DNA from: Escherichia phage 121Q
DNA length: 64,000 bases
Strand: one strand, 5' to 3'
Sequence record: NC_025447.1
Shown: positions 3,849 to 55,691 of the stretch, piece after piece
How positions within the stretch are numbered: position 1 is the stretch's first letter
Layout: each line of letters opens with the position of its first letter
Program-made: the position numbers and the translations under genes
Notes under the pieces: model-generated
Databases searched by the model: none
What the model saw: only the letters and a program-made list of their open reading frames with translations
What the model was told of the DNA's origin: nothing

Positions 3849-4208
3849 ATGGCTAAAACTATTTCTTTAAAAAATGAAAATGTAGGACAACGCAAAGATG
3901 GTTTCTTTGGATTCTCATGGACAACATTATTCTTTGGACCGTTCCCTGCATTGTTTCGTGGTGACTTTATTACGTTCATCGGTGCATTTGTAATTTACTT
4001 CATCCTCAACGCAGTGTCATTTTGGATTGTGGGTACAATTGCAATGGTCGTGTGGGCATTTCTTTACAATAAGTACTACACAGTGAATCTCATTAAGAAT
4101 GGGTATAAATTCAATGGCACACATGAAGAAAATGCTGAAGCTGCAATGGCTTTACAAATTGATTTGAATAAAAACAACACAGTTGATAAAAACAAAGATC
4201 CAGAATAA
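3849..4208 (+). CDS. putative integral membrane protein
   Basis: Two long hydrophobic segments (FFGPFPALF...FIGAFVIYFILNAVSFWIVGTIAMVVWAFLY); AGGAG RBS upstream. Confidence 0.5.
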   Translation: MAKTISLKNENVGQRKDGFFGFSWTTLFFGPFPALFRGDFITFIGAFVIYFILNAVSFWIVGTIAMVVWAFLYNKYYTVNLIKNGYKFNGTHEENAEAAMALQIDLNKNNTVDKNKDPE

Positions 4209-4427
4209 ATGGAAAAATATGACATAATTTACGATTATTATGGTAAGGCTTATATGAAGTGTGGGCGTTATGTTGAACTCTCTAATAGAGAATCAATAGA
4301 TCCCCACACTCTTATAACAATTCATAATTCGTACTATAAAAAAGTTACAATAGCTAATTTCGCTACATACGTGAATAATCCATTATTTCCTTACATTATT
4401 CAGTACTACTGTCGAGTTATAAAATAA
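4209..4427 (+). CDS. hypothetical protein
   Basis: 72-aa ORF immediately after upstream stop. Confidence 0.4.
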   Translation: MEKYDIIYDYYGKAYMKCGRYVELSNRESIDPHTLITIHNSYYKKVTIANFATYVNNPLFPYIIQYYCRVIK

Positions 4428-4436
4428 GGTAAAAAA

Positions 4437-4847
4437 ATGTTAGCCGATGATTTTATGTCTCTAAGTACCAAGATATTTGATATATTAGGAGATGAAATAG
4501 ATTTCCACCTAAATGATACAACTATACCGTTCGAAGATGGTGGTTATTTTTTTGCATTTGGTTATAAGTACAATGTTGATTTCTCAATTCCGATTCCTGA
4601 TGGAAGTGATTATACATCATCAACATATTTTGAATTTCAGTTCAACGGACACAAAGAGCGTTTACTAACATATAGACGTAAAGGTAATTTCAGTAGACCA
4701 GAGATTATATTAATGGATATTGAAAAACGAATAGAAATTGCAAAGAATAATCCATTCTTCAGTTCTTATGCGTTAAACCAACTTATTGAACTATTTGATG
4801 GCTATCCAGACAGAATACGAGGGTCGTTACGTATCAATGCAGAATGA
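4437..4847 (+). CDS. hypothetical protein
   Basis: 136-aa ORF. Confidence 0.5.
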   Translation: MLADDFMSLSTKIFDILGDEIDFHLNDTTIPFEDGGYFFAFGYKYNVDFSIPIPDGSDYTSSTYFEFQFNGHKERLLTYRRKGNFSRPEIILMDIEKRIEIAKNNPFFSSYALNQLIELFDGYPDRIRGSLRINAE

Positions 4848-5022
4848 AATCTTTAAAAAAGAATACGATGGTGAAAGTCTCTATGATATTCAGAGAGATG
4901 TGCATGAAGCCTTCGATTCAAGATTTAACCCATTAGCTGAACAAATCCCACAAGATGAGTTTGGTTTTCAAGAAGGGACGTTCACAGTAACTATTACATG
5001 GAGTCCAGATGAGACTAGCTAA
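4837..5022 (+). CDS. hypothetical protein (start uncertain: 4786, 4798 or 4837)
   Basis: Track ORF 4786..5022 overlaps the upstream gene by 62 nt; the internal ATG at 4837 (MQNEIFKKEY...) gives an 11-nt overlap typical of this genome. Confidence 0.35.
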   Translation: MQNEIFKKEYDGESLYDIQRDVHEAFDSRFNPLAEQIPQDEFGFQEGTFTVTITWSPDETS

Positions 5023-5125
5023 ACTTGTCATAGGTTGCAGTGCACTTGCTGCATATATGCTTTTTTCCGCACCAACCAATGTATTACTGCTAATTTGGGC
5101 AGTTGTTATATTAGCAGTACTTTAA
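5009..5125 (+). CDS. small hydrophobic membrane peptide (38 aa, not in ORF track)
   Basis: Hand translation MRLAKLVIGCSALAAYMLFSAPTNVLLLIWAVVILAVL; GGAG 5 nt upstream of the ATG; stop codon directly followed by a terminator hairpin. Confidence 0.35.
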   Translation: MRLAKLVIGCSALAAYMLFSAPTNVLLLIWAVVILAVL

Positions 5126-5126
5126 A

Positions 5127-5150
5127 AGCACCCTTGTGGTGCTTTTTCTA
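5127..5150 (+). terminator. rho-independent terminator
   Basis: AGCACC-cttgt-GGTGCT stem-loop followed by TTTTTC. Confidence 0.6.
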
Positions 5151-5222
5151 TTTGTGCAAATAAAAAGCAATGTGACTTTTCCTTGATATAGGTCAAGAGA
5201 AATAACCTGTTCTGACGCTATA

Positions 5223-7091
5223 ATGTTGTCTGGTGATATTAAATATCTTCACCCCCAGATGATTTCAAAATACAAGGAATGTACAATGCAATTAGATAAA
5301 TTATATACCGATGTAACAAATTTCCTAAATCAGAGTAATACTGATCTTACTAATGAAAACGCTAATAAAGATGCAAAATGCGTCAATACACATAGAGATT
5401 TACTAGCAGGTATTCTATCTAAGCATTATTCACAAGATGTTATTCCCACCGAGTTAATGCAATGGCATAATGATGGATATGGTCATATTCATGATTTAGA
5501 TTACTATATTAGCCCATTGACCAATTGTTGCTTGGTTAACTATCCTGATATGCTTAAAAACGGCTTCACTATTGGTTGTGCTAAAATTGAAGAACCAAAA
5601 AGTTTCAGTGTAGCTTGCACAGTACTGACACAAATTGTCCAAGCTGTTGCCAGTTCCCAGTATGGTGGTCAATCTTTGGCTCACATTGATGTCGGATTAG
5701 AACCTTACGTTCAAAAGTCATGGGATAAGCTGTTAGAAAAACAAAAGAAATATAATCTAAGTGATGAATTCATTGAAGAAGAACTACGTAAAGAAGTGTA
5801 TGATGGCTGCCAAACATTACTTTACCAAACTAATTCAATGATTAGTACTAATGGTCAAGCTGCATTTATTTCTCTTAGTTTAGGTCTTAACACTTCTAAA
5901 TTTGGCAAATTAATCACTGAACAGTACTTAAAAGTCCATGAGAATGGTTTAGGTAAAGATAAGATTACTCCAGTGTTTCCTAAAGTAATTTTCTTTTTAC
6001 AAGATGGTATAAACATGAATACCAACGATAGTAATTATGACCTTAAACAGTTAGCTATGCGTTGTGCATCAAAACGAATCTACCCTGACTTTGTTTCAGT
6101 ACCATTAAATCACAAAGTGACTGGAAGTAGTAGTACTGCTGTAACACCGATGGGCTGTCGTTCATTCTTAGGAAAATGGGAAGATTCAAATGGAAATGAA
6201 CAATACAACGGTCGTTTCAATTTAGGTGTGGTTTCTATCAATTTACCTCTAATTGCTCTTGAGAGTACTTCTGACGGAGAGTTTTTTGATAAGATAGACG
6301 AGCATATGAATATTGCATATCGTGCTCAGATGAACCGCGTAGAGCGTTTAAAAGGCACTAAAGCAAAGCAAAATCCAATTTTGTTCATGGAAGGTGCATT
6401 AGCACGTTTAGGTGCAGAAGAAACCATTGACAAGCTATTTTACAATGGTTATGCTAGTATTAGTATTGGTTATGTTGGACTTGTTGAATGTTCAGAAATC
6501 CTCACTGGTTCTATCAGTAAGGAGTTTTGTATGTCAGTACTGAATTATATGAAAGTAAAATGCGATGAGTTCAAAAAAGAGAGTAATATAGCTTTTAGTC
6601 TATATGGAACTCCAGCAGAGTCACTTTGTTATAAATTTGCACGTTGTATTGAAGCAAAATATCCTTCAGTACTAAAACGTGATTACATCACAAATTCCTT
6701 CCATCAACCAGTATGGGTAGAAAGTTCTCCATTTGATAAATGGAGTTATGAAGAAGGCTTTGCTTACCTAAGTAACGGTGGAAACATCAGTTATGTTGAA
6801 TCTCCAAACTTAGCAAACAACATTCAAGCACTTGAAACATTAGTTAACTATGCTTACACGAAGATACCATATTTTGGTATTAACCAACCAGTTGACCATT
6901 GTTATGAATGTGGCTTCCAGGGTGAGTTCAGTGTAGATAAACATGGTTTCCACTGTCCGGTATGTGATAATCGTAATGAGAAGACAATCTCAGTGATTCG
7001 TCGTGTTTCTGGTTACTTGGGTAATCCTTCTTCGCGTGGATTCAATAAAGGCAAACAACAAGAGTGTTGTGAGCGTATTCAGCACAAATAA
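5223..7091 (+). CDS. nrdD: anaerobic ribonucleoside-triphosphate reductase (class III RNR)
   Basis: 622 aa; C-terminal glycyl-radical motif (IRRVSGYLG) and Zn-ribbon (CYECGF...HCPVCDN) characteristic of NrdD; T4-like phages encode NrdD/NrdG. Confidence 0.9.
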   Translation: MLSGDIKYLHPQMISKYKECTMQLDKLYTDVTNFLNQSNTDLTNENANKDAKCVNTHRDLLAGILSKHYSQDVIPTELMQWHNDGYGHIHDLDYYISPLTNCCLVNYPDMLKNGFTIGCAKIEEPKSFSVACTVLTQIVQAVASSQYGGQSLAHIDVGLEPYVQKSWDKLLEKQKKYNLSDEFIEEELRKEVYDGCQTLLYQTNSMISTNGQAAFISLSLGLNTSKFGKLITEQYLKVHENGLGKDKITPVFPKVIFFLQDGINMNTNDSNYDLKQLAMRCASKRIYPDFVSVPLNHKVTGSSSTAVTPMGCRSFLGKWEDSNGNEQYNGRFNLGVVSINLPLIALESTSDGEFFDKIDEHMNIAYRAQMNRVERLKGTKAKQNPILFMEGALARLGAEETIDKLFYNGYASISIGYVGLVECSEILTGSISKEFCMSVLNYMKVKCDEFKKESNIAFSLYGTPAESLCYKFARCIEAKYPSVLKRDYITNSFHQPVWVESSPFDKWSYEEGFAYLSNGGNISYVESPNLANNIQALETLVNYAYTKIPYFGINQPVDHCYECGFQGEFSVDKHGFHCPVCDNRNEKTISVIRRVSGYLGNPSSRGFNKGKQQECCERIQHK

Positions 7092-7099
7092 GGTAAATT

Positions 7100-7432
7100 A
7101 TGGATTTAAAGCCAATTGTGGTTAACAAATACAAAGAACCGTATGATGTGTATATTGGACGTGGGTCTAAATGGGGAAACCCATTTACCCATATTAAAGA
7201 TAAACAAACTAAAGCCGAATTCATTGTTAGTACAAGAGAAGAATCAATTGAAAAATTCAGAGAATACATTATTGAACGTATTTCTTGTGGAGAAGTTAAG
7301 ATTGATGAATTACTTGAACTCGCAGGGAAACGCCTTGGTTGTTTCTGTAAACCCAAATCATGTCACGGCGATGTTCTTGTCGAAATAGTGAGTGCAATAT
7401 TAGATGAATTACCAGACGATAATCAAGGATGA
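7100..7432 (+). CDS. small conserved protein with GNPF motif (possibly DUF4326-like)
   Basis: YIGRGSKWGNPF motif; sits between nrdD and nrdG; family assignment is from memory and tentative. Confidence 0.35.
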   Translation: MDLKPIVVNKYKEPYDVYIGRGSKWGNPFTHIKDKQTKAEFIVSTREESIEKFREYIIERISCGEVKIDELLELAGKRLGCFCKPKSCHGDVLVEIVSAILDELPDDNQG

Positions 7433-7874
7433 TTTAGTAAATGGAGAGGGCGTTCGCTGCTCTTTATTTGTTAGTGGGTGTTCGCACGGATGTGATGGTT
7501 GCTTCAATGAAGAAGCATGGGACTACCGAAGTGGACAAGAGTTCAGTACTGAAACAGTTGAGATTATACTACAGGAACTAAAAAAACCATATGTTAGTGG
7601 TTTGTCACTTCTAGGCGGCGATCCATTAATGAAAAAGAATATAGATGAAGTTTTAAATCTATGCAAAGTAGTTAAAGAAACTTATCCTAGTAAAACTATT
7701 TGGTGCTGGAGTGGGTATACTTTAGATGAGATTATGAAAAATCATGCTAAAGATATACTTCAGTACTTAGATGTATTAGTTGATGGTAAGTTTATCGAGT
7801 CCGAAAAGAATTTAAAATTACCTTTCCGTGGTTCAAATAATCAAAGAATACTATATAAAAATAAAGATTTTTAA
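7404..7874 (+). CDS. nrdG: anaerobic ribonucleotide reductase activating protein (radical SAM)
   Basis: GEGVRCSLFVSGCSHGCDGCFN: radical-SAM cysteine cluster in the NrdG-specific arrangement; directly downstream of nrdD. Confidence 0.9.
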   Translation: MNYQTIIKDDLVNGEGVRCSLFVSGCSHGCDGCFNEEAWDYRSGQEFSTETVEIILQELKKPYVSGLSLLGGDPLMKKNIDEVLNLCKVVKETYPSKTIWCWSGYTLDEIMKNHAKDILQYLDVLVDGKFIESEKNLKLPFRGSNNQRILYKNKDF

Positions 7875-7877
7875 CAT

Positions 7878-7901
7878 AAGCACCCGTTGGGTGCTTTTTT
7901 G
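7878..7901 (+). terminator. rho-independent terminator
   Basis: AAGCACCC-gtt-GGGTGCTT plus T6; stem sequence nearly identical to the terminator at 5127. Confidence 0.7.
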
Positions 7902-7906
7902 TTATG

Positions 7907-7916
7907 TATATAAATA
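7907..7916 (+). promoter_or_regulatory. T4-type late promoter (TATAAATA)
   Basis: tatataaata about 35 nt upstream of the first tail-fibre gene start; matches the T4 late promoter consensus. Confidence 0.5.
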
Positions 7917-7950
7917 CATTAACTAATATCTAATTTATAAGGGATATATA

Positions 7951-48249: not shown

Positions 48250-49230
48250 ATGGCTAAAAAAATTAATGAAGCACAAGTTAAAATCGATATCGCAGGTTTA
48301 GAATCTGATGATTTGGAAACTCTATCACGTATGTTAGCTCTTGCTGGTCAAGCTGAACGTCAAGACCCAGTAGTTGCCGCTCCAGTACCATCTATGGGGT
48401 CTATGACTCCATCTCTTCCACCTATTGCTCCACTAGATCTCGATTCTATTGGTGCTGAAGAAGAAATTGGTGGAATTGAAACTTCAGTTGAAGACCCACT
48501 AGCAGCGGCAGTTGATGATCTTTCCGCTGATGTTGGTGATTTTGGTGCTGACACAGATGAAGTTAGTATGGATGCTGAATTTTCAGAACCAGGTGTAGAA
48601 GGTGAAGAAGATTTTTCTCTTGACCTTAGTGGTCAACCTCAACTAGAATCAGTTGAAGAAGACGATGAGGAAGAAGAAGAAATTATTGAAGAAGAATTCG
48701 ATTTTAGTCGTATGCTATCTCTTGCTGGTATTAACGAAGAAGAAGACGAAGATTTTTCAGTAGAGGGTAATCCTGCTACCGATAAAGAAATGAAAGATAC
48801 CCAATTTCTACCAGATCTAAGTATCTCTGAAGATGAAGAACCATCTAACAGTACTGATTATGGTCCATATGATACAGAAGCTGATGCCGTTCGTGATGGT
48901 CAACTAAAGACTAATGGTGTTGAAGGTGACCATTTTGTTGTAATTGCAAAAGGCAATCAATTTTATTGGAGACGTGTTGTAGATGAAGATCTTGACAATC
49001 GTCCAGAACCTGAGTATTATGATAATGAAGGGAACGAAAATCGTGTTCATAAATTTGAACCAAAATTCCCAGGCACTGCATTAGGAGATAACCCACTAAA
49101 TGTTAATGAAAGTGAAGAAGATGATTCACCTGAAGGTAACATTGACTTGGAAGATGATTCTGATGAAGAAGTAGAAGATATTTTTGAAAGTCTCCAAGAA
49201 AAATACAAGAAATTTTTAGGAGACAAATAA
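48250..49230 (+). CDS. hypothetical extremely acidic protein
   Basis: 326 aa, Asp/Glu-rich with runs such as EEDDEEEEEIIEEE. Confidence 0.55.
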   Translation: MAKKINEAQVKIDIAGLESDDLETLSRMLALAGQAERQDPVVAAPVPSMGSMTPSLPPIAPLDLDSIGAEEEIGGIETSVEDPLAAAVDDLSADVGDFGADTDEVSMDAEFSEPGVEGEEDFSLDLSGQPQLESVEEDDEEEEEIIEEEFDFSRMLSLAGINEEEDEDFSVEGNPATDKEMKDTQFLPDLSISEDEEPSNSTDYGPYDTEADAVRDGQLKTNGVEGDHFVVIAKGNQFYWRRVVDEDLDNRPEPEYYDNEGNENRVHKFEPKFPGTALGDNPLNVNESEEDDSPEGNIDLEDDSDEEVEDIFESLQEKYKKFLGDK

Positions 49231-49231
49231 T

Positions 49232-49627
49232 ATGCAATATAATTATCGTGAACTAGTTGAAGCGTTAGACGAAATTACCGGAAGAGATGAAGACGAAAGT
49301 TTTTCAGTTGAAGTTGAATCCGATGTTGTAGCAGTTGATGTTCTTAAGGATATTACCAAATGTCTTATTGATATTGTTGATAAGATTAAATCTGGTGAAG
49401 ACCAAAAAGAAATTGTAGATAAACTACAAAAAGCCTGTGACATTTTGTCTGACATTCGATATAATGATGAAAGTACTGAAGTTGCTGATGAAGAAGTGTT
49501 GGAAGCCATTGCAGGTTGTTTTGGAACTGAAGGTATGGGACCAACAATTGACAAAGAAGGCGTACAACACTATAATGAGCCTGGTGCACCATCATATGCT
49601 GCACGTCAAGGTTTTGTTGGAGACTAA
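49232..49627 (+). CDS. hypothetical acidic protein
   Basis: 131-aa ORF; start within 2 nt of upstream stop. Confidence 0.5.
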   Translation: MQYNYRELVEALDEITGRDEDESFSVEVESDVVAVDVLKDITKCLIDIVDKIKSGEDQKEIVDKLQKACDILSDIRYNDESTEVADEEVLEAIAGCFGTEGMGPTIDKEGVQHYNEPGAPSYAARQGFVGD

Positions 49628-49630
49628 TAT

Positions 49631-50011
49631 ATGTTTCCAGAACCATCACATAACAGTACTGAATATCAAAATAATGTACTTTCCAAAGTTAGGGAAGTAC
49701 ATGAATCAGATTCAGAAATAACAGACCGTATGCTTCTGATGTCAATTTTTGAAAATTTCAGAACTGGCGGTGGTTTACGTCTTAGCAAGTTTGGGTATGG
49801 AATTTGTAAAGAAAATAATCTTTATGAATTTACAAAAATCCCCTTGCAAAGAGAATTTAAAAGTTCTATAATGTTTACATCACTTGACAGAATATGTACT
49901 TCACCTTATTATGTTGAAGGTCAGTACATATATCTGACAGATGCAATGATAATAACTGAATTAACATTGTGTTGTGACGATTTTAAACAGTTATTTTCTA
50001 TTCATATGTAA
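49631..50011 (+). CDS. hypothetical protein
   Basis: 126-aa ORF. Confidence 0.5.
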   Translation: MFPEPSHNSTEYQNNVLSKVREVHESDSEITDRMLLMSIFENFRTGGGLRLSKFGYGICKENNLYEFTKIPLQREFKSSIMFTSLDRICTSPYYVEGQYIYLTDAMIITELTLCCDDFKQLFSIHM

Positions 50012-50035
50012 GAAAAAATGAATTAAAAATAAATG

Positions 50036-50063
50036 TTGACAAGATAGAATGATGTGATACAAT
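50036..50063 (+). promoter_or_regulatory. sigma70-like promoter, copy 1 of duplicated element
   Basis: TTGACA-agatagaatgatgTGA-TACAAT (16-nt spacer, TG-n extended -10). Confidence 0.6.
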
Positions 50064-50129
50064 AAGCATCAGACATAAAGTTTTCAAGCGACACAAGATG
50101 TGAGTTTGAAAAAAAAAGAAAAAAAGTGA

Positions 50130-50157
50130 TTGACAAGTTGAAACGATGTGATATAAT
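50130..50157 (+). promoter_or_regulatory. sigma70-like promoter, copy 2 of duplicated element
   Basis: TTGACA-agttgaaacgatgTGA-TATAAT; near-identical to the copy 94 nt upstream. Confidence 0.65.
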
Positions 50158-50326
50158 GTTCACATCAAGACAGCAAAGAGATTTACCTTTTAAACACACG
50201 GATGATTCATGAAGTAACAAAGGAACTGATAAGTTAAATTATTTTAACACAGTTCCTTTACTTTTGCCCACGGATTGGCTATAATAGAAACTTAAACGAT
50301 TTTATCCAACAAAAGGAAATATATAC

Positions 50327-51652
50327 ATGACTACTCAAAACGATATCCTGAACGTTAAACTGACTCCAAAGAAAGCTAAAGAAGCAATGGCACTAGCTGA
50401 CATGATTCAAGATAGCCTGATGATTTGGGGTAGCCCAGGTATCGGTAAGTCTGCAATCGCTCGTCAATACGCTGATGAAAATTACCCACTGCGTAAAGAT
50501 AACGTAGCTAAAATCGAGTTCATGAAACAACAAATCGAAGCTGACCCTGAAAATGCTGATCAGCTACGCCGTGAACTGGCTGCATTTGAAGCAAAACTAA
50601 TCGACCAAGATACTAACTTTATCGATTTCCGTTTGTCTCAAATCGAACCAAGTGACCTTCGCGGTATTCCAGTACCAGAGAAGCTTTTCCGTAAAACTGA
50701 CGGTTCTCTTCTGAAAGAATCTGAGCTTGCCGAAGCAAAAGATTATGTAGCTGAAACTGCGGTAGTATGGGCTGCACCTAAAGTTCTGAAATTGTCCGAA
50801 GATTGGAAAGGTGTTATTCTGTTTGACGAAATTAACTCTGCAATGCCTATTGTTCAGGCAGCGTCTTATCAGCTAATCCTCGACCGTTGTGTTGGTGAGA
50901 TGAAGCTACCTAAGACTGCACTGATTCTTGCAGCAGGTAACCGTGAAACTGATGGCGGTGTAACTTTCTCTCTTGCTACACCACTGCGTGACCGTATGAC
51001 TCACATTGAGATGATTCCTTATCATCAAGATTGGATTAACGATTATGCGATTGCAAAACGTTTGAACCCAGCAACTGTTGCGTTCATCAACAACACTGGT
51101 TCTAAGTACTTTAACACACTTAGTCCACAAGATCCTTCTCACAGTGGTGGTACTTCTCCACGTTCATGGGAAGCAGTAGCACGCTACGAAGATCTCAAGA
51201 AAACTAAGACAATTGATAAAGAAGTGTTCCGTGCAATGATTGCTGGTCGTGTTGGTGAAGGTGTTGCAACTGAATACATTGAGTACGTTGAGAACGTTGC
51301 TAAACTACCAGATACTATGTCTATTCTGTCTGGTGAAATCAAAGAAATCGACGCAACGCTGGATATTTCTGCGAACTACTTTATCACTCTGAACTTGGTT
51401 TATAAAATTATCGACCTGTTCAATGAGAAGCAAGAACAACGTCTACCAGTGGAAGAATGGGGTAAACTGTGTAACAACTTCATCACCTTCCTAGACCATA
51501 ACTTCTCTGCAACTCAAGCAGAACTGGCAGTACTGGCAATTCGTACCATCACGCTTCATAAGGTTGCGATTTCCATTAAAGATGTACCAGCGTTTAAAGA
51601 TTTCATCGCTAAGTACTCTGAACTTGTACGTAAAGCACGCTCTCTTGGCTAA
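50327..51652 (+). CDS. MoxR-like AAA+ ATPase
   Basis: Walker A WGSPGIGKSAIARQYA and Walker B VILFDEINSA; 441 aa; AAAGGAAA RBS; partnered with a VWA protein downstream. Confidence 0.8.
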   Translation: MTTQNDILNVKLTPKKAKEAMALADMIQDSLMIWGSPGIGKSAIARQYADENYPLRKDNVAKIEFMKQQIEADPENADQLRRELAAFEAKLIDQDTNFIDFRLSQIEPSDLRGIPVPEKLFRKTDGSLLKESELAEAKDYVAETAVVWAAPKVLKLSEDWKGVILFDEINSAMPIVQAASYQLILDRCVGEMKLPKTALILAAGNRETDGGVTFSLATPLRDRMTHIEMIPYHQDWINDYAIAKRLNPATVAFINNTGSKYFNTLSPQDPSHSGGTSPRSWEAVARYEDLKKTKTIDKEVFRAMIAGRVGEGVATEYIEYVENVAKLPDTMSILSGEIKEIDATLDISANYFITLNLVYKIIDLFNEKQEQRLPVEEWGKLCNNFITFLDHNFSATQAELAVLAIRTITLHKVAISIKDVPAFKDFIAKYSELVRKARSLG

Positions 51653-51673
51653 TTAACAAAGAGTTGTTGACAA

Positions 51674-51706
51674 GAAGGATGCCTAATGGTATCCTTCTTT
51701 TATCTT
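51674..51706 (+). terminator. terminator-like hairpin (possible attenuator between MoxR and VWA genes)
   Basis: GAAGGAT-gcctaatggt-ATCCTTC followed by TTTTATCTT. Confidence 0.5.
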
Positions 51707-51726
51707 AACTAAACGAGGAAATATAC

Positions 51727-53151
51727 ATGTCAGATAACAAATCTACTTCCAGATTCAATGAAGTATCTCCGGCACTCCAGAAAGAATGTCAAGATCGTCT
51801 GGTTCTGGCTCGTACATCTTTGATGTTAACTGCACCATTCTTTGGTGTACTCGCTTCACGTTTACGTCCAGTTCCTAATAATACATGGTGTCGTACTCTA
51901 GCAGTTGATGGTAAACATCTATTCTACAACGTAGAATTTGTAATGGGTATTCAAGACCCATCTAAAAAGAAAGAATATGAAGAAGCTATTCGTGAAAAGC
52001 ATCCTGAAGTTACAGACGAACAATTAAAAGAAATGACTGAAGGTTTGACTGATGAAAACCTTATTGCTGTAATTTGTCATGAAATTCTACACTGTGCTTA
52101 CGATCACTTCCTTCGTCGTGGTATGCGTGATCCACAACGTTATAACCGTGCAGCGGATTATGCCATTAACCAAATCATCGTTCGTGAGAAAATTGGAAAA
52201 ATCCAAAGTTCATGGTTGTATGATAAAAAATATGAAGGTATGACCGCAGAAGAGATTTACATTCTTCTTGAAGAAGAAGAACAAAAAGAAGATGGTGAAG
52301 GTGAAGGTCAACCACAAAGTGGCGGCGGTGAAGGTGAAGGTAAAAATCGCGGTACTTTTGGTGATATTAAAGATGGTAAGGGTAAACCAAAAGGTACTAC
52401 CATTGACCAGCATGACGTTCCACAAGAAGGTCAAGAAGGTGGTTCAAGTGAACAGCAAAAACGTGATTATATGGATGATTTCAAAACAGCAATGATGAAT
52501 GCTGCACGTGCAGGTGGTACACCAGCAGAAATCGCTCGTATGATTAACAACTTTAAAGAACCAAAGATTGACTGGCGTTCAAAACTTCAACGTACACTTC
52601 GTAGTTGGTTGAAGTCTGATGCAACGTATCAAAGTCCTTCTCGTCGTTCATGGGGTGCTGGTTTTGGTTCTAATGGTTCATTCTATGGTAATCCAATTTA
52701 CCCAGGGATGAAACCAGATGATGATATTGATATTGCGATTGCACTAGATGCTTCTGGGTCTATTTCTGAAGATATGCTTCGTGATTTCATTAGTGAAGTT
52801 CTTGGCATCACTAAACAATTCAAACAGTTTAAGATTCGTATCATGACTTTTGATACTGAAGTTTATACTGTAAAGGATTACAAAACTGGCGAAGAACGTA
52901 AGATTCTGGAATATCCAGTAAAAGGTGGTGGTGGTACTGACTTTGAAGCAGTATGGGTTCATATGAAGAACGACAACTACAAGCCTAAACAGCTTGTAAT
53001 GTTTACTGATGGTGAACCGTGGCAGTCATGGGGTGATCCAAACTACTGTAAAACACTGTTCGTGATTCACAGTAACCCAAATAAAGTTGCACCATTTGGT
53101 GAGACTGTACACTACGAATATGAAGCTGATAAAAAGCGTCAACGTAGTTAA
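51727..53151 (+). CDS. VWA-domain protein with N-terminal HExxH metallopeptidase-like domain (DUF2201-type architecture)
   Basis: HExxH (ICHEILHCAYDH) in the N-terminal half, Gly/Glu-rich linker, MIDAS motif DxSxS (IALDASGSIS) in the C-terminal VWA domain; ACGAGGAAA RBS. Confidence 0.75.
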   Translation: MSDNKSTSRFNEVSPALQKECQDRLVLARTSLMLTAPFFGVLASRLRPVPNNTWCRTLAVDGKHLFYNVEFVMGIQDPSKKKEYEEAIREKHPEVTDEQLKEMTEGLTDENLIAVICHEILHCAYDHFLRRGMRDPQRYNRAADYAINQIIVREKIGKIQSSWLYDKKYEGMTAEEIYILLEEEEQKEDGEGEGQPQSGGGEGEGKNRGTFGDIKDGKGKPKGTTIDQHDVPQEGQEGGSSEQQKRDYMDDFKTAMMNAARAGGTPAEIARMINNFKEPKIDWRSKLQRTLRSWLKSDATYQSPSRRSWGAGFGSNGSFYGNPIYPGMKPDDDIDIAIALDASGSISEDMLRDFISEVLGITKQFKQFKIRIMTFDTEVYTVKDYKTGEERKILEYPVKGGGGTDFEAVWVHMKNDNYKPKQLVMFTDGEPWQSWGDPNYCKTLFVIHSNPNKVAPFGETVHYEYEADKKRQRS

Positions 53152-53163
53152 GTACTAAATAAA

Positions 53164-53194
53164 GAGAACGGAATTTTCCGTTCTCTTCTTTTAT
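53164..53194 (+). terminator. rho-independent terminator
   Basis: GAGAACGG-aatttt-CCGTTCTC followed by TTCTTTTAT. Confidence 0.7.
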
Positions 53195-53196
53195 AA

Positions 53197-53226
53197 GTGG
53201 GACAACTTATAAAAATATGATATAAT
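53197..53226 (+). promoter_or_regulatory. sigma70-like extended -10 promoter (GTGGGACA-N16-TGA-TATAAT)
   Basis: aGTGGGACA ... atATGATATAAT; same motif as at 34184 and 23439. Confidence 0.55.
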
Positions 53227-53260
53227 AGTTAATGTACCAATATACATGGAGAGTATTAAA

Positions 53261-53506
53261 ATGGAACAAGAAAATAATCAAATTCAACTAACCCTTCTAG
53301 ACCTAATCAATGCTGCAAAAATCATGGAAGCTGCTGTTGCACGAAACACCTTTAAAGTTGAAGAACTTGTTGAGGTTGCTCCAGTTGTATCTAAATTTGT
53401 TTCTTTTGCAAATGTAGCTCTTGAAGATATTAAAGCACAAGAAGATGCAGCTAAAGAAGAAGCTGAATCACAAGATAGTGAAACTCAAGAAGATAAAGGA
53501 GAATAA
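53261..53506 (+). CDS. hypothetical acidic protein
   Basis: Start placed at ATG 53261 (GGAGAG 6 nt upstream) rather than track start 53246. Confidence 0.45.
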   Translation: MEQENNQIQLTLLDLINAAKIMEAAVARNTFKVEELVEVAPVVSKFVSFANVALEDIKAQEDAAKEEAESQDSETQEDKGE

Positions 53507-53508
53507 TT

Positions 53509-54165
53509 ATGGCAGCTATTCGTCATGTTGGTGTAATGCGTAATACAGGTTCTCGTGTTTTTGTTGTTTGGCGTTCACTACCAGATGATCCTGAACACTG
53601 CCTTATCGTTTATCGTGATTCACTACCAGAAGCATATGTTCACGCAGTAACTGATATTGTTATGGGTCATGGTCAATCTAATATTGATTTGTGGGAAGTA
53701 ATGCATAAAATTGGTTATCTCGATGGACGCAAAATGCTAGATGTTCTACACAACATGCAGCATCTACGTCGCGTTCGTACTTGTGACATTGATATGCACA
53801 CTGGTGGTAATAATAAAATTTCTCTTGATGTTCTAAACAAAGCATTAGATGAAAATCAAGCGAAAGTACAAGAAGATGGTAAAGTAAAAGACTTTAACCC
53901 ATTCAATCCACAAGAAGCGGACACTAAAGTAGAAGAAGCTACTATTGTAGAACAACTTCTCACTGATGCACAAAAATATGAAAAACTGGCTAAAGAACAT
54001 TATGAACGTGCATACAATTTAGAGCCAAGCTTGCGTCCGCAAACACAAGTTGTTGAACAACCGAAAGATAGTAAAACAATTTATCTAGAAATTCCAGAAG
54101 GTATTTCACAGACTAAAGCTATTGAGAAAGTAAAACAACTATTTGCAGAACGTAAAGCAAAATAA
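53509..54165 (+). CDS. hypothetical protein
   Basis: 218-aa ORF, start 3 nt after upstream stop. Confidence 0.5.
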   Translation: MAAIRHVGVMRNTGSRVFVVWRSLPDDPEHCLIVYRDSLPEAYVHAVTDIVMGHGQSNIDLWEVMHKIGYLDGRKMLDVLHNMQHLRRVRTCDIDMHTGGNNKISLDVLNKALDENQAKVQEDGKVKDFNPFNPQEADTKVEEATIVEQLLTDAQKYEKLAKEHYERAYNLEPSLRPQTQVVEQPKDSKTIYLEIPEGISQTKAIEKVKQLFAERKAK

Positions 54166-54168
54166 AAT

Positions 54169-54762
54169 ATGAAAAAGAATGAATTAGATGAAGCAATTAA
54201 AGGTTTATCTAATGTATGTTTTAGTGGCGGGGCAGCAGGTGCTGACCGCCTTTTTTCTATCTATGCAAAAAATAATGGATTTGAAGTTATTAATTTTTCA
54301 TTCAAAGGTCATGAGCATAGTGTAGATGAAAGTACTATATTAGAAATACCATCCAATATTCTATCTGATATTTCTATATTAAATCAACTAAACATTGCAT
54401 GTTACTCGTTGCAGCGAAAAGTACCAAAACCTGGTTCTTATGTTTACAACTTACTTGCAAGGAATAGTTATCAGATACTTAATACAGAAAGAATATATTG
54501 TATTGCAAATATCACATCACCAACTAAGGTAAGTGGTGGTACTGCATGGGCAGTACAGATGTATATGGATTCAGTTGAAAATCCTGAAATTTATTGTTAT
54601 GATATGAATTCACGTTCAGTATTTTATTTCGATACAGTACTGAAAGAGTTCACACAAACATTCGTCGTTCCAGCACCACATGGTAACTGGACTGGTATTG
54701 GTTCACGCAATGCCACCGAAAAACATATGGAACATTTTATTACATTTTTCAAGGAAGAATAA
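54169..54762 (+). CDS. Rossmann-like protein with GGAAGAD motif (possibly SLOG/DprA-like)
   Basis: VCFSGGAAGADRLFSIYA resembles the glycine-rich loop of SLOG/DprA-type folds; ATGA overlap with the downstream thymidylate-synthase gene. Confidence 0.3.
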   Translation: MKKNELDEAIKGLSNVCFSGGAAGADRLFSIYAKNNGFEVINFSFKGHEHSVDESTILEIPSNILSDISILNQLNIACYSLQRKVPKPGSYVYNLLARNSYQILNTERIYCIANITSPTKVSGGTAWAVQMYMDSVENPEIYCYDMNSRSVFYFDTVLKEFTQTFVVPAPHGNWTGIGSRNATEKHMEHFITFFKEE

Positions 54763-55691
54763 TGAAACAACTACAAGAACTATATCAAAAAATTCTAGAT
54801 GAAGGCGTAGAAAGCGTTGACCGTACTGGTGTTGGAACAATCAAACTTATCGGTCAACAAATGCGTTTTGACCTTAAAGATGGTTTCCCAGCAGTGACGA
54901 CAAAACGTCTAGCTTGGAAAGCAATGACTTCAGAATTACTATGGTTTATTGAAGGTTCCCATGATGAGCGTCGCCTTTGTGAAATTTTGCATGGAACTCG
55001 TGATACAGAAAAGAAAACTATTTGGACAGATAATTACCTAAATCAAGGCGTTGCTCTTGGTTATACTGATGGTGAGTTAGGTCCAGTGTATGGTAAGCAA
55101 TGGCGTGAATGGGAAGATTATAAATTTAGTTCCAGTACTGAAGAAATTCAAGAATTAAAAGATAAAGGATACAAAGTTATCGATTATACTGGTTCACATG
55201 GTGTTGTTATGAAACGTACAACTGACCAATTACAAGAACTAATCAAAGGTATAAAGTCCGATCCATATGGCCGTCGCCACATTCTAAGTGCATGGAACGT
55301 TGGTGAGCTTGATGATATGACGTTACCACCTTGTCATAGCTTTGTGCAATTTTGTGTAGTGCAAGGAAAACTAAGCTGTATTCTGCATCAACGCTCCGCT
55401 GATCTATTTTTAGGAGTTCCATTTAATATCAGTAGTTACTCACTACTAACTCATATGATTGCACAAATTACTGGTTTAGATGTTGGTGAATTTATTTGGA
55501 ATGGTGGTGATTGTCACATTTATAAAAACCACGTTGAACAAGTAAAAGAACAACTACAGCGAAAACCTCGTGAATTACCTGAATTGTGGCTTGATCCTAC
55601 AATTACTAATATTGAAGATTTCACTATGGATTCTTTTAAATTAGTGAATTACAACCCAATGCCAACAATTAAAGCACCTATGGCTGTATAA
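54762..55691 (+). CDS. thyA: thymidylate synthase family enzyme (ThyA/Td-like; dUMP-specific by the conserved Asn)
   Basis: LAWKAMTSELLWFIEGS ... LPPCHSFVQFCVVQGKLSCILHQRSADLFLGVPFNISSYSLLTHMIAQ ... GDCHIYKNH: catalytic Cys in PCH, folate-binding blocks and Asn in PFNISSY. Confidence 0.85.
   Translation: MKQLQELYQKILDEGVESVDRTGVGTIKLIGQQMRFDLKDGFPAVTTKRLAWKAMTSELLWFIEGSHDERRLCEILHGTRDTEKKTIWTDNYLNQGVALGYTDGELGPVYGKQWREWEDYKFSSSTEEIQELKDKGYKVIDYTGSHGVVMKRTTDQLQELIKGIKSDPYGRRHILSAWNVGELDDMTLPPCHSFVQFCVVQGKLSCILHQRSADLFLGVPFNISSYSLLTHMIAQITGLDVGEFIWNGGDCHIYKNHVEQVKEQLQRKPRELPELWLDPTITNIEDFTMDSFKLVNYNPMPTIKAPMAV

What the first reader, a model, noticed from the sequence alone, without database searches (positions are those of the whole stretch)
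50036..53151. MoxR AAA+ ATPase plus VWA/HExxH partner driven by duplicated strong promoters
A MoxR-type ATPase is followed by a protein with an HExxH metallopeptidase-like N-domain and a MIDAS-containing VWA domain. MoxR-VWA pairs act as chaperone/insertase-like modules and appear in bacterial conflict systems. Here the pair is preceded by two near-identical consensus promoters 94 bp apart, implying high early expression, and a hairpin separates the two genes. Its role in a phage is not established.
Basis: partly seen in the sequence, partly recalled or inferred. Interest (0 to 1): 0.65.

Follow-up and report, generated by a model that had tools for sequence, protein, structure and literature searches.

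The report
Known phage MoxR ATPase–VWA protease pair
This is the N4 gp24/gp25-type gene pair, a MoxR-class AAA+ ATPase plus a zinc-peptidase/VWA partner, already annotated in jumbo coliphage phAPEC6 and described in the literature; it is real and neatly regulated, but not new, and its biological role has still not been tested.

Summary
The window is 100% identical to jumbo coliphage phAPEC6 (Asteriusvirus). ORF 50327-51652 is a MoxR-class AAA+ ATPase. ORF 51727-53151 carries an HExxH zincin domain (Pfam DUF2201_N) and a VWA domain with a complete MIDAS motif (DUF2201). It is not CobS/CobT.

Two consensus sigma70 promoters lie 94 bp apart, at 50036 and 50130. Both are conserved across Asteriusvirus, and copy number varies: one in RaK2, three in SP27. 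A stable hairpin separates the two genes.

- A conserved terminator-like hairpin (50219-50259) lies between the promoters and the ATPase.
- The pair sits inside a five-gene block (49631-54165) that is conserved in very distant phages.
- The pair is already known. phAPEC6 annotates it as "MoxR ATPase" and "N4 gp25-like". Its N4 homologues gp24/gp25 are core genes of N4-like phages. Iyer et al. 2021 described this MoxR + peptidase-VWA pair in jumbo phages.

In 80 metagenomic viral loci holding relatives of the ATPase:
- the VWA gene follows the ATPase in 73;
- a sigma70-type promoter precedes the ATPase in 67;
- an intercistronic hairpin is present in 52 of 55 testable gaps, against 36% of other gaps.

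The likely mechanism is an ATP-driven protein remodelling and processing machine. The substrate is unknown. Novelty: already known. Interest: low to moderate.

The parts
49631..50011 (+). Conserved 126-aa protein of unknown function (phrog_15638). It is the first gene of the conserved five-gene block.
   Evidence: A homologue lies directly upstream of the ATPase in 59 of 80 distant viral loci; the cluster HMM scores E 4e-30 against this ORF.
50036..50063 (+). Promoter P1: TTGACA-16-TACAAT with extended -10 TG and an A-rich UP-like tract upstream.
   Evidence: Conserved in UE-S1, ph0011, Turkey3 and RaK2.
50130..50157 (+). Promoter P2: TTGACA-16-TATAAT (12/12) with extended -10 TG and an A-rich UP-like tract, 94 bp after P1.
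   Evidence: Conserved across Asteriusvirus, absent in RaK2. The 94-nt unit is perfectly duplicated again in phage SP27.
50219..50266 (+). Leader stem-loop (10-bp outer stem plus inner stem) followed by UUUACUUUUG. It is a terminator- or attenuator-like element between P1/P2 and the ATPase.
   Evidence: Annotated as a terminator in G17. -15.9 kcal/mol, z -5.1. Compensatory stem changes in RaK2, Serratia phage BF and Xanthomonas phage XaC1.
50257..50285 (+). Weaker promoter-like site P3 (TTTACT-17-TATAAT) overlapping the tail of the leader hairpin.
   Evidence: Conserved in Asteriusvirus, degenerate in RaK2 (TATCAT), not recognisable in BF or XaC1.
50327..51652 (+). MoxR-class AAA+ ATPase (phAPEC6 gp265c; homologue of N4 gp24). 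Walker A is at 50429-50452 and Walker B (DE) at 50825-50830.
51667..51699 (+). Intercistronic element: TTGACA followed by a 12-bp stem-loop (51672-51699) and a U-rich tail. The -10-like TATCCT lies in the 3' arm.
   Evidence: Compensatory changes in RaK2 (L015). Hairpin present in 52/55 ATPase-VWA gaps against 112/308 other gaps.
51727..53151 (+). Zincin (HEILH at 52078-52092) plus VWA/MIDAS (DASGS at 52747-52761) protein (phAPEC6 gp264c; homologue of N4 gp25). A low-complexity G/E-rich linker spans roughly aa 185-240.
53162..53187 (+). Intrinsic-terminator-like hairpin after the VWA gene, followed by the promoter-like site GGGACA-16-TATAAT (53199-53226).
53246..53506 (+). Conserved 86-aa protein (phrog_13789), the fourth gene of the block.
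   Evidence: Cluster HMM E 1.9e-11; present in 30 of 80 viral loci and in MAG contigs retrieved from bacterial genome assemblies.
53509..54165 (+). Conserved 218-aa protein (phrog_15894; phAPEC6 gp262c), the fifth gene of the block.
   Evidence: Cluster HMM E 1.9e-52; present in at least 37 of 80 loci, a count limited by the flank fetched.

Best explanation
This is the phage N4 gp24/gp25-type module.

Gene 1 is a MoxR-class AAA+ ATPase with intact catalytic motifs, presumably a hexameric ring. Gene 2 joins a zincin-type HExxH metallopeptidase domain to a VWA domain with a complete MIDAS site.

By analogy with RavA-ViaA, NorQ-NorD, CbbQ-CbbO and Midasin, the VWA/MIDAS domain would dock an acidic residue of a client protein. 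The ATPase ring would supply mechanical remodelling, and the fused peptidase would cut the client. Together they would form an ATP-driven protein maturation and processing machine.

Transcription would be by host sigma70 RNA polymerase from two tandem promoters, so it would begin early. Transcripts must pass a conserved leader hairpin, which probably acts as a leaky terminator. A second conserved hairpin between the genes probably lowers VWA-peptidase output relative to the ATPase, as a 6:1-type complex would need.

The client is unknown. My leading guess is phage-encoded proteins or complexes made before or during morphogenesis, possibly virion-associated ones.

Shown here: domain identities, motif conservation, obligate gene pairing, and conservation of the promoter and hairpins. 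Inferred: hexamer formation, client docking, proteolysis, attenuation and the biological role.
For: Identity:
- Pfam DUF2201_N and DUF2201 in 41/41 homologues.
- AAA_5, AAA_3 and bpMoxR hits in family members.
- HExxH, MIDAS, Walker A/B, sensor and arginine residues invariant.

Pairing:
- The VWA gene lies directly downstream on the same strand in 73/80 viral loci.
- The two genes occur together in every bacterial-assembly locus with enough flank.
- By tblastn the ATPase is in 814 phage records and the VWA protein in 616, including N4.

Regulation:
- Promoter pattern found twice against 0.02 expected, and conserved.
- A sigma70-type promoter lies upstream of the ATPase in 67/80 loci, against 0.09 background sites per 280 nt.
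- Intercistronic hairpin in 52/55 gaps against 112/308 other gaps, Fisher p about 1e-17, with 43 distinct sequences.
- Compensatory changes in both hairpins.

Role:
- The ATPase was detected by MS in purified phAPEC6 virions (6 peptides, 19% coverage; PMC7247149). The PA5oct homologue is flagged ESI-MS/MS.
- Virion structural genes lie directly upstream here and in RaK2, BF and XaC1.
- In an N4-like roseophage, virion-protein genes lie near the gp24/25 homologues (PMC4193335).
- Iyer et al. 2021 propose virion assembly with proteolytic processing (PMC7824862).
Against: - No experiment on any member was found in the library searched.
- Sigma70-type promoters suggest early rather than late expression.
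- In the metagenomic phage loci the cassette lies near a 5'-3' exonuclease (43/80). In N4 it lies among middle genes next to dCTP deaminase. In a Brucella locus it lies near a DNA ligase and a beta clamp. All of these are replication neighbourhoods rather than morphogenesis ones.
- The phAPEC6 virion MS list also contains thymidylate synthase, so detection there may reflect abundance rather than incorporation.
- The peptidase call rests on the motif, the Pfam family and a weak match to the minigluzincin selecase (E 0.08).
- The window protein itself does not reach the Pfam AAA_5 or AAA_3 thresholds.
Confidence: 0.6

Rival explanations
1. An early or middle function unrelated to virions. The machine would remodel or cleave host proteins, or phage replication and nucleotide-metabolism complexes, soon after infection. 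It would act together with the three small conserved proteins of the five-gene block.
For: - Sigma70-type promoters here and in 67/80 distant loci.
- N4 gp24/gp25 are middle genes.
- Neighbours include a 5'-3' exonuclease (43/80 loci), dCTP deaminase in N4, DNA ligase and beta clamp in a Brucella locus, ThyA plus a SLOG protein here and ThyX in cyanophage S-TIM66.
- The conserved block 49631-54165 has no recognisable structural genes.
Against: - ThyA lies within 3 kb in only 1/80 loci, so linkage to nucleotide metabolism is not general.
- The ATPase is found in virion preparations of two phages.
- The pair is immediately adjacent to structural genes in RaK2-like phages.
- No client can be named.
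Confidence: 0.3
2. Aerobic cobaltochelatase subunits CobS/CobT, or another metal chelatase carried as an auxiliary metabolic gene.
For: CobS is a MoxR-like AAA+ ATPase and CobT carries a VWA domain. Two of 47 family members give weak Mg_chelatase hits.
Against: - No CobS_N, CobT or CobT_C hit in 47 and 41 family members.
- The partner carries an HExxH zincin domain instead of the CobT N-terminal region.
- No CobN-like gene is nearby.
- NCBIfam finds nothing.
Confidence: 0.02
3. A conflict system: a MoxR-vWA anti-phage defence module, or a phage counter-defence module.
For: MoxR-vWA ternary systems are described as conflict systems (PMC7159879). The genes would be expressed early.
Against: - No PADLOC hit.
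- No third VMAP-type component.
- The pair is one of 14 core genes of N4-like phages and is present in hundreds of virulent phages with very different hosts. That distribution is unlike accessory counter-defence genes.
Confidence: 0.06
4. Gene 2 is an HNH endonuclease or an anti-sigma factor, as many GenBank records and PHROG 1314 label it.
For: Annotation only.
Against: No HNH or anti-sigma Pfam hit in 41 members. All 41 hit DUF2201_N and DUF2201. The fold of the C-terminal half is VWA.
Confidence: 0.01

Closest known systems
Coliphage N4 gp24 (AAA ATPase) and gp25 (vWFA protein), core genes of N4-like phages (Schitoviridae)
   Same: Homologous by tblastn (ATPase E 2e-21 to N4). The VWA protein matches many N4-like phages. 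Gene order and orientation are the same. Function is unknown in both.
   Different: The jumbo-phage ATPase carries two insertions (about aa 53-92 and about aa 120-145) that are absent from the shorter (about 360-aa) relatives in the family alignment. N4's middle genes are transcribed by the phage RNAP II rather than from sigma70 promoters. The N4-like VWA matches cover mainly the C-terminal half.
MoxR AAA+ / vWA pair with N-terminal metallopeptidase in 'group 2.2' jumbo phages (Iyer, Anantharaman, Krishnan, Burroughs, Aravind 2021, Viruses 13:63)
   Same: The same architecture, in the RaK2/121Q-type jumbo phage group. This is the published description of this pair.
   Different: That paper proposes a virion-assembly role by analogy only. 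It does not describe the promoters, the hairpins or the five-gene block.
Cellular MoxR-VWA chaperone pairs: RavA-ViaA, NorQ-NorD, CbbQ-CbbO, CoxD-CoxE; also Midasin
   Same: An AAA+ ATPase of the MoxR/dynein/midasin clade paired with a MIDAS-bearing VWA protein. Structural matches to CbbQ, NorQ, the NorD VWA domain and the Mdn1 MIDAS domain.
   Different: None of these carries a zincin peptidase on the VWA partner. Sequence similarity to the window ATPase is below Pfam thresholds. Their clients are metalloenzymes or pre-ribosomes.
PeSL (promoter-early stem-loop) composite terminator/promoter cassettes of T4-type phages (Arbiol 2010; Comeau 2014)
   Same: A stem-loop terminator placed next to an AT-rich tract and a near-consensus sigma70 promoter, in intergenic spaces. 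Such elements are prone to recombination and copy-number change. Compare 53162-53226, 50219-50285, and the 1, 2 or 3 promoter copies.
   Different: P1 and P2 themselves have no stem-loop. At 51667-51699 the stem-loop lies downstream of the -35 hexamer rather than upstream of the promoter. RaK2-like phages were not part of the PeSL studies.

Membership tests
MoxR-class AAA+ ATPase | AAA+ core with Walker A, Walker B, sensor 1, arginine finger and sensor 2 | tested here: met
   G35-S42 (GxxGxGKS), D167-E168, N205, R223 and R279 are invariant or nearly so in 47 homologues. The model shows an AAA+ fold with pLDDT 86.5.
MoxR-class AAA+ ATPase | Match to MoxR-type family models (Pfam AAA_3 / AAA_5 / bpMoxR) | tested here: inconclusive
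   The window protein gives only AAA at E 3.9e-4 and AAA_3 at E 7e-3, below cut-off. Among its homologues, 15/47 hit AAA_5, 13/47 AAA_3 and 4/47 bpMoxR.
MoxR-class AAA+ ATPase | Structural similarity closest to the MoxR/dynein/midasin clade | tested here: inconclusive
MoxR-class AAA+ ATPase | Genomic pairing with a VWA/MIDAS protein | tested here: met
   73/80 viral loci, and all bacterial-assembly loci with enough flank.
DUF2201-type zincin-VWA protein (Pfam PF13203 + PF09967) | Both Pfam domains above the gathering score | tested here: met
   119.5 bits (cut-off 23.2) and 75.1 bits (cut-off 26.4); 41/41 homologues.
DUF2201-type zincin-VWA protein (Pfam PF13203 + PF09967) | HExxH zinc-binding motif conserved | tested here: met
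   H118, E119 and H122 invariant; H127 nearly invariant. Weak profile match to the minigluzincin selecase at the motif (E 0.08). Catalysis not tested.
DUF2201-type zincin-VWA protein (Pfam PF13203 + PF09967) | VWA fold with a complete MIDAS site (DxSxS...T...D) | tested here: met
Aerobic cobaltochelatase CobS/CobT | CobS N-terminal domain and CobT / CobT_C domains | tested here: not met
   No such Pfam hits in any of 47 and 41 family members. NCBIfam finds nothing.
Aerobic cobaltochelatase CobS/CobT | A CobN partner or a cobalamin pathway context | tested here: not met
   Neighbours are virion proteins, unknowns, a SLOG protein and ThyA.
MoxR-vWA conflict systems (VMAP ternary systems; known defence systems) | A third VMAP or effector component; match to defence-system models | tested here: not met
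   No PADLOC match at E <= 0.01. The conserved neighbours are small proteins of unknown function.
PeSL composite terminator/promoter elements | Stem-loop, then an AT-rich tract, then a sigma70-like -35/-10 in an intergenic space | tested here: inconclusive
   53162-53226 and 50219-50285 fit this order. 51667-51699 has the -35 before the stem. P1 and P2 have no stem.
PeSL composite terminator/promoter elements | Promoter and terminator activity | not testable with these tools
   Needs reporter assays or transcript-end mapping.

The most novel reading that the evidence does not exclude
The pair may be the core of a conserved five-gene early cassette: 126-aa protein, MoxR ATPase, zincin-VWA protein, 86-aa protein, 218-aa protein (49631-54165). 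The cassette has its own host-type promoter and an intercistronic attenuator. It is shared by jumbo coliphages and by many freshwater and marine phages whose ATPases are only about 30% identical.

On this reading it is an uncharacterised, near-universal early-acting remodelling protease of virulent phages. It would act on host or replication proteins rather than serving as a late assembly chaperone.
Probability: 0.3. Interest if true: 0.6.

Novelty: already known. Interest (0 to 1): 0.3.

Why it matters
The module is among the most widespread phage gene pairs with no tested function. By tblastn it is in 616 to 814 GenBank phage records, and it is one of only 14 core genes of N4-like phages. 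Finding its client would fill a real gap in phage biology.

The finding itself adds no new kind of system. What this analysis adds is:
- the conserved promoter and hairpin layout;
- the variable promoter copy number;
- the five-gene block.

Together these give concrete handles for experiments.

Tried and rejected
1. Linkage to thymidylate synthase, suggested by this window, N4 and cyanophage S-TIM66. ThyA lies within 3 kb in only 1/80 loci. Rejected as a general feature; ThyX was not tested.
2. Sequestration of the Shine-Dalgarno sequence by an upstream ACCUUUU in long leader transcripts. It is predicted by folding (z -2.8). The pairing partners are invariant in close relatives and absent in BF and XaC1, so there is no support from covariation.
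3. A small ORF or small RNA between P2 and the leader hairpin. By eye, an 11-codon reading frame here shrinks to 3 codons in RaK2 (sequence). Rfam finds nothing significant.
4. A 'TGAAACG' middle-promoter box inside P2. Its spacing to any -10 element is wrong (by eye). BF and XaC1 do, however, carry TGAAAC-N16/17-TATAAT at the equivalent place.
5. Sequence searches of the PDB with single proteins and with profiles gave only generic Walker A, integrin and selecase matches.
6. NCBIfam and PADLOC found nothing.
7. A terminator-like hairpin in the leader of the 80 distant loci was seen in only 2/59. The leader hairpin is therefore specific to RaK2-like phages.
Full report
**Source of the window.** The region 49900-53300 is 100% identical to Escherichia phage vB_EcoM_phAPEC6. 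It is 99% or more identical to G17, PBECO4, SP27 and other Asteriusvirus jumbo coliphages. In phAPEC6 the two genes are gp265c, annotated 'ATPase; MoxR ATPase', and gp264c, annotated 'N4 gp25-like protein'. In RaK2 they are annotated 'similar to N4 Gp24 ATPase' and 'Gp25'.

**Observation check.**
- The two ORFs are at 50327-51652 (441 aa) and 51727-53151 (474 aa).
- Two sigma70 consensus promoters lie in the 315-bp spacer upstream: TTGACA-16-TACAAT at 50036-50063 and TTGACA-16-TATAAT at 50130-50157.
- Each promoter has an extended -10 TG and an A-rich upstream tract. Their starts are 94 bp apart.
- The shared 28-nt pattern occurs twice in the window against 0.02 expected from shuffles.
- A 12-bp stem-loop at 51672-51699 (-19.3 kcal/mol, z -6.3) separates the genes. 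Another at 53162-53187 follows the second gene.

**Gene 2.**
- It matches Pfam DUF2201_N ('putative metallopeptidase', E 2.7e-34) and DUF2201 ('VWA-like', E 7e-21). All 41 aligned homologues do the same, and none hits CobT.
- H118, E119 and H122 (HExxH) and the MIDAS residues D341, S343, S345, T404 and D428 are invariant.
- The AlphaFold model has mean pLDDT 75.6, with both domains confident and the G/E-rich linker disordered.
- A profile of the N-terminal domain finds only the minigluzincin selecase (MJ1213) in the PDB, weakly (E 0.08), aligned at the HExxH helix.
- The 'HNH endonuclease' and 'anti-sigma factor' labels in PHROG 1314 and in many GenBank records have no support.

**Gene 1.**
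- It barely reaches Pfam AAA (E 3.9e-4). Its Walker A, Walker B, sensor 1, arginine finger and sensor 2 residues are nevertheless invariant.
- Homologues of about 30% identity and about 360 aa carry AAA_5 (15/47), AAA_3 (13/47) and bpMoxR (4/47). None hits a CobS model.
- Relative to the short forms, the jumbo-phage lineage has a helical-hairpin insertion (about aa 53-92) and a lengthened beta-hairpin insert (about aa 116-147).

I accept 'MoxR-class' on three grounds: family membership through homologues, the fold, and obligate pairing with a MIDAS-VWA protein. The window protein alone does not pass the Pfam MoxR models. The CobS/CobT alternative is rejected.

**What is already known.**
- N4 gp24 (AAA ATPase) and gp25 (vWFA) are two of the 14 core genes of N4-like phages. 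They are middle genes of unknown function (PMC4193335; PMC2784036).
- tblastn links the window proteins to N4 (E 2e-21). It finds the ATPase in 814 phage records and the VWA protein in 616. These include Schitoviridae, Vequintavirinae, RaK2-like phages, PA5oct, SCTP-2 and a cyanophage.
- Iyer et al. 2021 explicitly describe, in 'group 2.2 jumbo phages', a MoxR AAA+ / vWA pair whose vWA protein is fused to an N-terminal metallopeptidase. They propose a role in virion assembly with proteolytic processing, by analogy with the tail-assembly MoxR-vWA pair of Acidianus two-tailed virus (PMC7824862).
- I found no experimental work on this family in the library.

The pair is therefore already known as a kind, and it is annotated in this very genome.

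*Promoters.* P1 and P2 are conserved in Asteriusvirus members down to about 86% identity (UE-S1, ph0011, Turkey3). RaK2 has a single copy. SP27 has three copies, through a perfect 94-nt tandem duplication of the P2 unit. The promoter unit is thus amplifiable.

*Leader hairpin.* Between P2 and the ATG lies a stem-loop at 50219-50259 followed by UUUACUUUUG (-15.9 kcal/mol, z -5.1). G17 annotates it as a terminator. It is kept in four groups of RaK2-like phages, with compensatory changes:
- GGAACUG/CAGUUCC in this window;
- GGACUG/CAGUCC in RaK2;
- GGCACUG/CAGUGCC in Serratia phage BF;
- GGCACU/AGUGCC in Xanthomonas phage XaC1.

In BF and XaC1 the promoter upstream of this hairpin is of the TGAAAC-N16/17-TATAAT type. 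That type was described as a second, DNA-synthesis-associated promoter class in phage CBB (PMC5259590).

A weaker promoter-like site (TTTACT-17-TATAAT, 50257-50285) overlaps the hairpin tail, but it is not kept outside the E. coli and Klebsiella phages. The conserved route is therefore promoter, then hairpin, then gene. That arrangement suggests a leaky terminator or attenuator rather than unhindered high expression.

*Resemblance to PeSLs.* The stem-loop-plus-promoter arrangements at 50219-50285 and 53162-53226 resemble the PeSL composite terminator/promoter cassettes of T4-type phages. Those cassettes are recombinogenic (PMC2839356, PMC4122927), which fits the variable promoter copy number.

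**Comparative test in distant phages.** I fetched 80 IMG/VR loci holding ATPase relatives, most about 30% identical to the window protein. They fall into 20 lineages at 70% identity.
- The zincin-VWA gene lies directly downstream on the same strand in 73/80. Most of the rest are truncated loci.
- A TTGACA-N16-18-TATAAT site with at least 10/12 matches lies within 280 nt upstream of the ATPase in 67/80 loci, and 48 of these have at least 11/12. Elsewhere in the same loci the density is 0.09 and 0.03 sites per 280 nt. By lineage, 12 of 20 have such a site.
- A hairpin of at least 6 bp with at least 3 G-C pairs lies between the two genes in 52/55 gaps of 25-400 nt. 48 have stems of at least 8 bp, and 38 have a T-rich tail. 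Other same-strand gaps in the same loci give 112/308, 73/308 and 32/308. Fisher p is 4e-17 to 2e-19.
- There are 43 different hairpin sequences, and 10 of 12 testable lineages have one.
- In one subgroup the hairpin fills the spacer of a perfect TTGACA-N17-TATAAT. In the window, TTGACA (51667) precedes the hairpin and a -10-like TATCCT lies in its 3' arm.

The loci are not independent, so the p-values overstate the case. Even so, the diversity of stems argues for selection on the structure. A reasonable reading is that the hairpin uncouples the two genes and lowers the VWA-peptidase level relative to the ATPase. For comparison, RavA is about four times more abundant than ViaA in E. coli (abstract of PMC3893208).

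**A larger conserved block.** Clustering the neighbouring ORFs in the 80 loci showed three more conserved genes with homologues in the window:
- a protein of about 129 aa directly upstream of the ATPase in 59/80 loci, matching window 49631-50011 (E 4e-30);
- a protein of about 83 aa, matching window 53246-53506 (E 1.9e-11; 30 loci);
- a protein of about 203 aa, matching window 53509-54165 (E 1.9e-52; at least 37 loci, a count limited by the flank fetched).

The same order appears in MAG contigs retrieved from bacterial genome assemblies. None of the three has a Pfam family, and their PHROGs have unknown function. P1 and P2 therefore sit inside a five-gene block that is conserved across very distant phages.

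**Function.**

*Molecular reading (moderately secure).* An AAA+ ring, a MIDAS adaptor and a zincin together form an ATP-driven remodelling and processing machine.

*For a virion-related role:*
- The block directly follows virion structural genes here and in RaK2, BF and XaC1.
- gp265c was found in purified phAPEC6 virions (6 peptides, 19% coverage). The PA5oct ATPase is flagged ESI-MS/MS.
- In an N4-like roseophage, virion-protein genes lie near the gp24/25 homologues.
- In cyanophage S-TIM66 the pair lies between Hsp20 and a structural gene.

*Against a purely late role:*
- The promoters are of the host type.
- N4 expresses gp24/gp25 in the middle phase.
- Neighbours in other lineages are replication genes: a 5'-3' exonuclease in 43/80 loci, dCTP deaminase in N4, and DNA ligase plus beta clamp in a Brucella locus.
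- The phAPEC6 virion list also contains thymidylate synthase.

The biological role is open. I rank maturation or assembly of phage protein complexes first (about 0.4). An early replication- or host-directed role comes second (about 0.3).

**Verdict.** The finding is accurate, and its refutation condition (CobS/CobT) is not met. It describes a module that is already annotated in this phage and already described in the literature. The additions here are regulatory and contextual detail:
- the leader hairpin;
- the conserved promoter and intercistronic hairpin;
- one to three promoter copies;
- the five-gene block.

Novelty: already known. Interest: 0.3.

Noticed in passing
window 49631-54165: The MoxR/VWA pair is embedded in a five-gene block (126 aa, ATPase, VWA protein, 86 aa, 218 aa). 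The same order is conserved in metagenomic viral contigs and in MAG contigs from bacterial assemblies whose ATPases are only about 30% identical. The three small proteins have no known function (phrog_15638, 13789, 15894).
   Followed up: partly
L013 (Escherichia phage SP27) 239-426; window 50106-50202: SP27 carries a perfect 94-nt tandem duplication of the P2 promoter unit. Promoter copy number upstream of the ATPase is therefore 1 in RaK2, 2 in most Asteriusvirus and 3 in SP27.
   Followed up: yes
window 48992-49912: Four near-consensus sigma70-like sites, all on the + strand, lie inside the coding sequences just upstream of P1: 48992 (11/12), 49437 (11/12), 49548 (12/12) and 49884 (11/12). 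Counting P1 and P2, 6 of the 14 sites with at least 11/12 matches in the whole 64-kb window lie within 1.2 kb. The 49437 site and a 10/12 site at 49844 are kept as far as RaK2; 49548 is kept only in UE-S1. Whether this reflects function or coding constraint is unknown.
   Followed up: partly
window 53162-53226 and 50219-50285: Stem-loop terminators are immediately followed by, or overlap, sigma70-like promoters. This resembles the PeSL composite cassettes described in T4-type phages.
   Followed up: partly
L008 3341-3375 (Serratia phage BF); L009 3311-3345 (Xanthomonas phage XaC1): At the position of P1/P2 these phages have a TGAAAC[A/G]-N16-TATAAT/TATACT promoter. This is the 'divergent RpoD-like' class reported for phage CBB. 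The promoter class upstream of the same gene therefore differs between genera.
   Followed up: partly
window 49631-50011: This conserved ORF is annotated in G17 and 121Q but is missing from the phAPEC6 GenBank annotation. There is no CDS between gp266c and gp265c.
   Followed up: no
window 51727-53151: PHROG 1314 and many GenBank records name this protein 'HNH endonuclease' or 'anti-sigma factor'. No domain evidence supports either name, so this is a propagated mis-annotation.
   Followed up: yes
window 54169-55691: A SLOG/YpsA-like ('DprA-like', phrog_768) gene abuts thymidylate synthase downstream of the block.
   Followed up: no
window 50483-50602 and 50672-50767 (ATPase aa 53-92 and 116-147): These are lineage-specific insertions in the jumbo-phage ATPase: a helical hairpin after the Walker A helix, and a lengthened beta-hairpin. 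The roughly 360-aa relatives lack them.
   Followed up: partly
L112 (Brucella pecoris contig) 3961-12419; also L111, L113-L116, L123: Genomes of isolates of several alphaproteobacterial genera (Brucella, Pseudochrobactrum, Ancylobacter, Peteryoungia, Ensifer, Rhizobium) carry the ATPase and the VWA gene about 1 kb apart. In the Brucella locus they lie among small ORFs, an ATP-dependent DNA ligase and a beta sliding clamp, which looks like a prophage or phage-plasmid replication region.
   Followed up: partly
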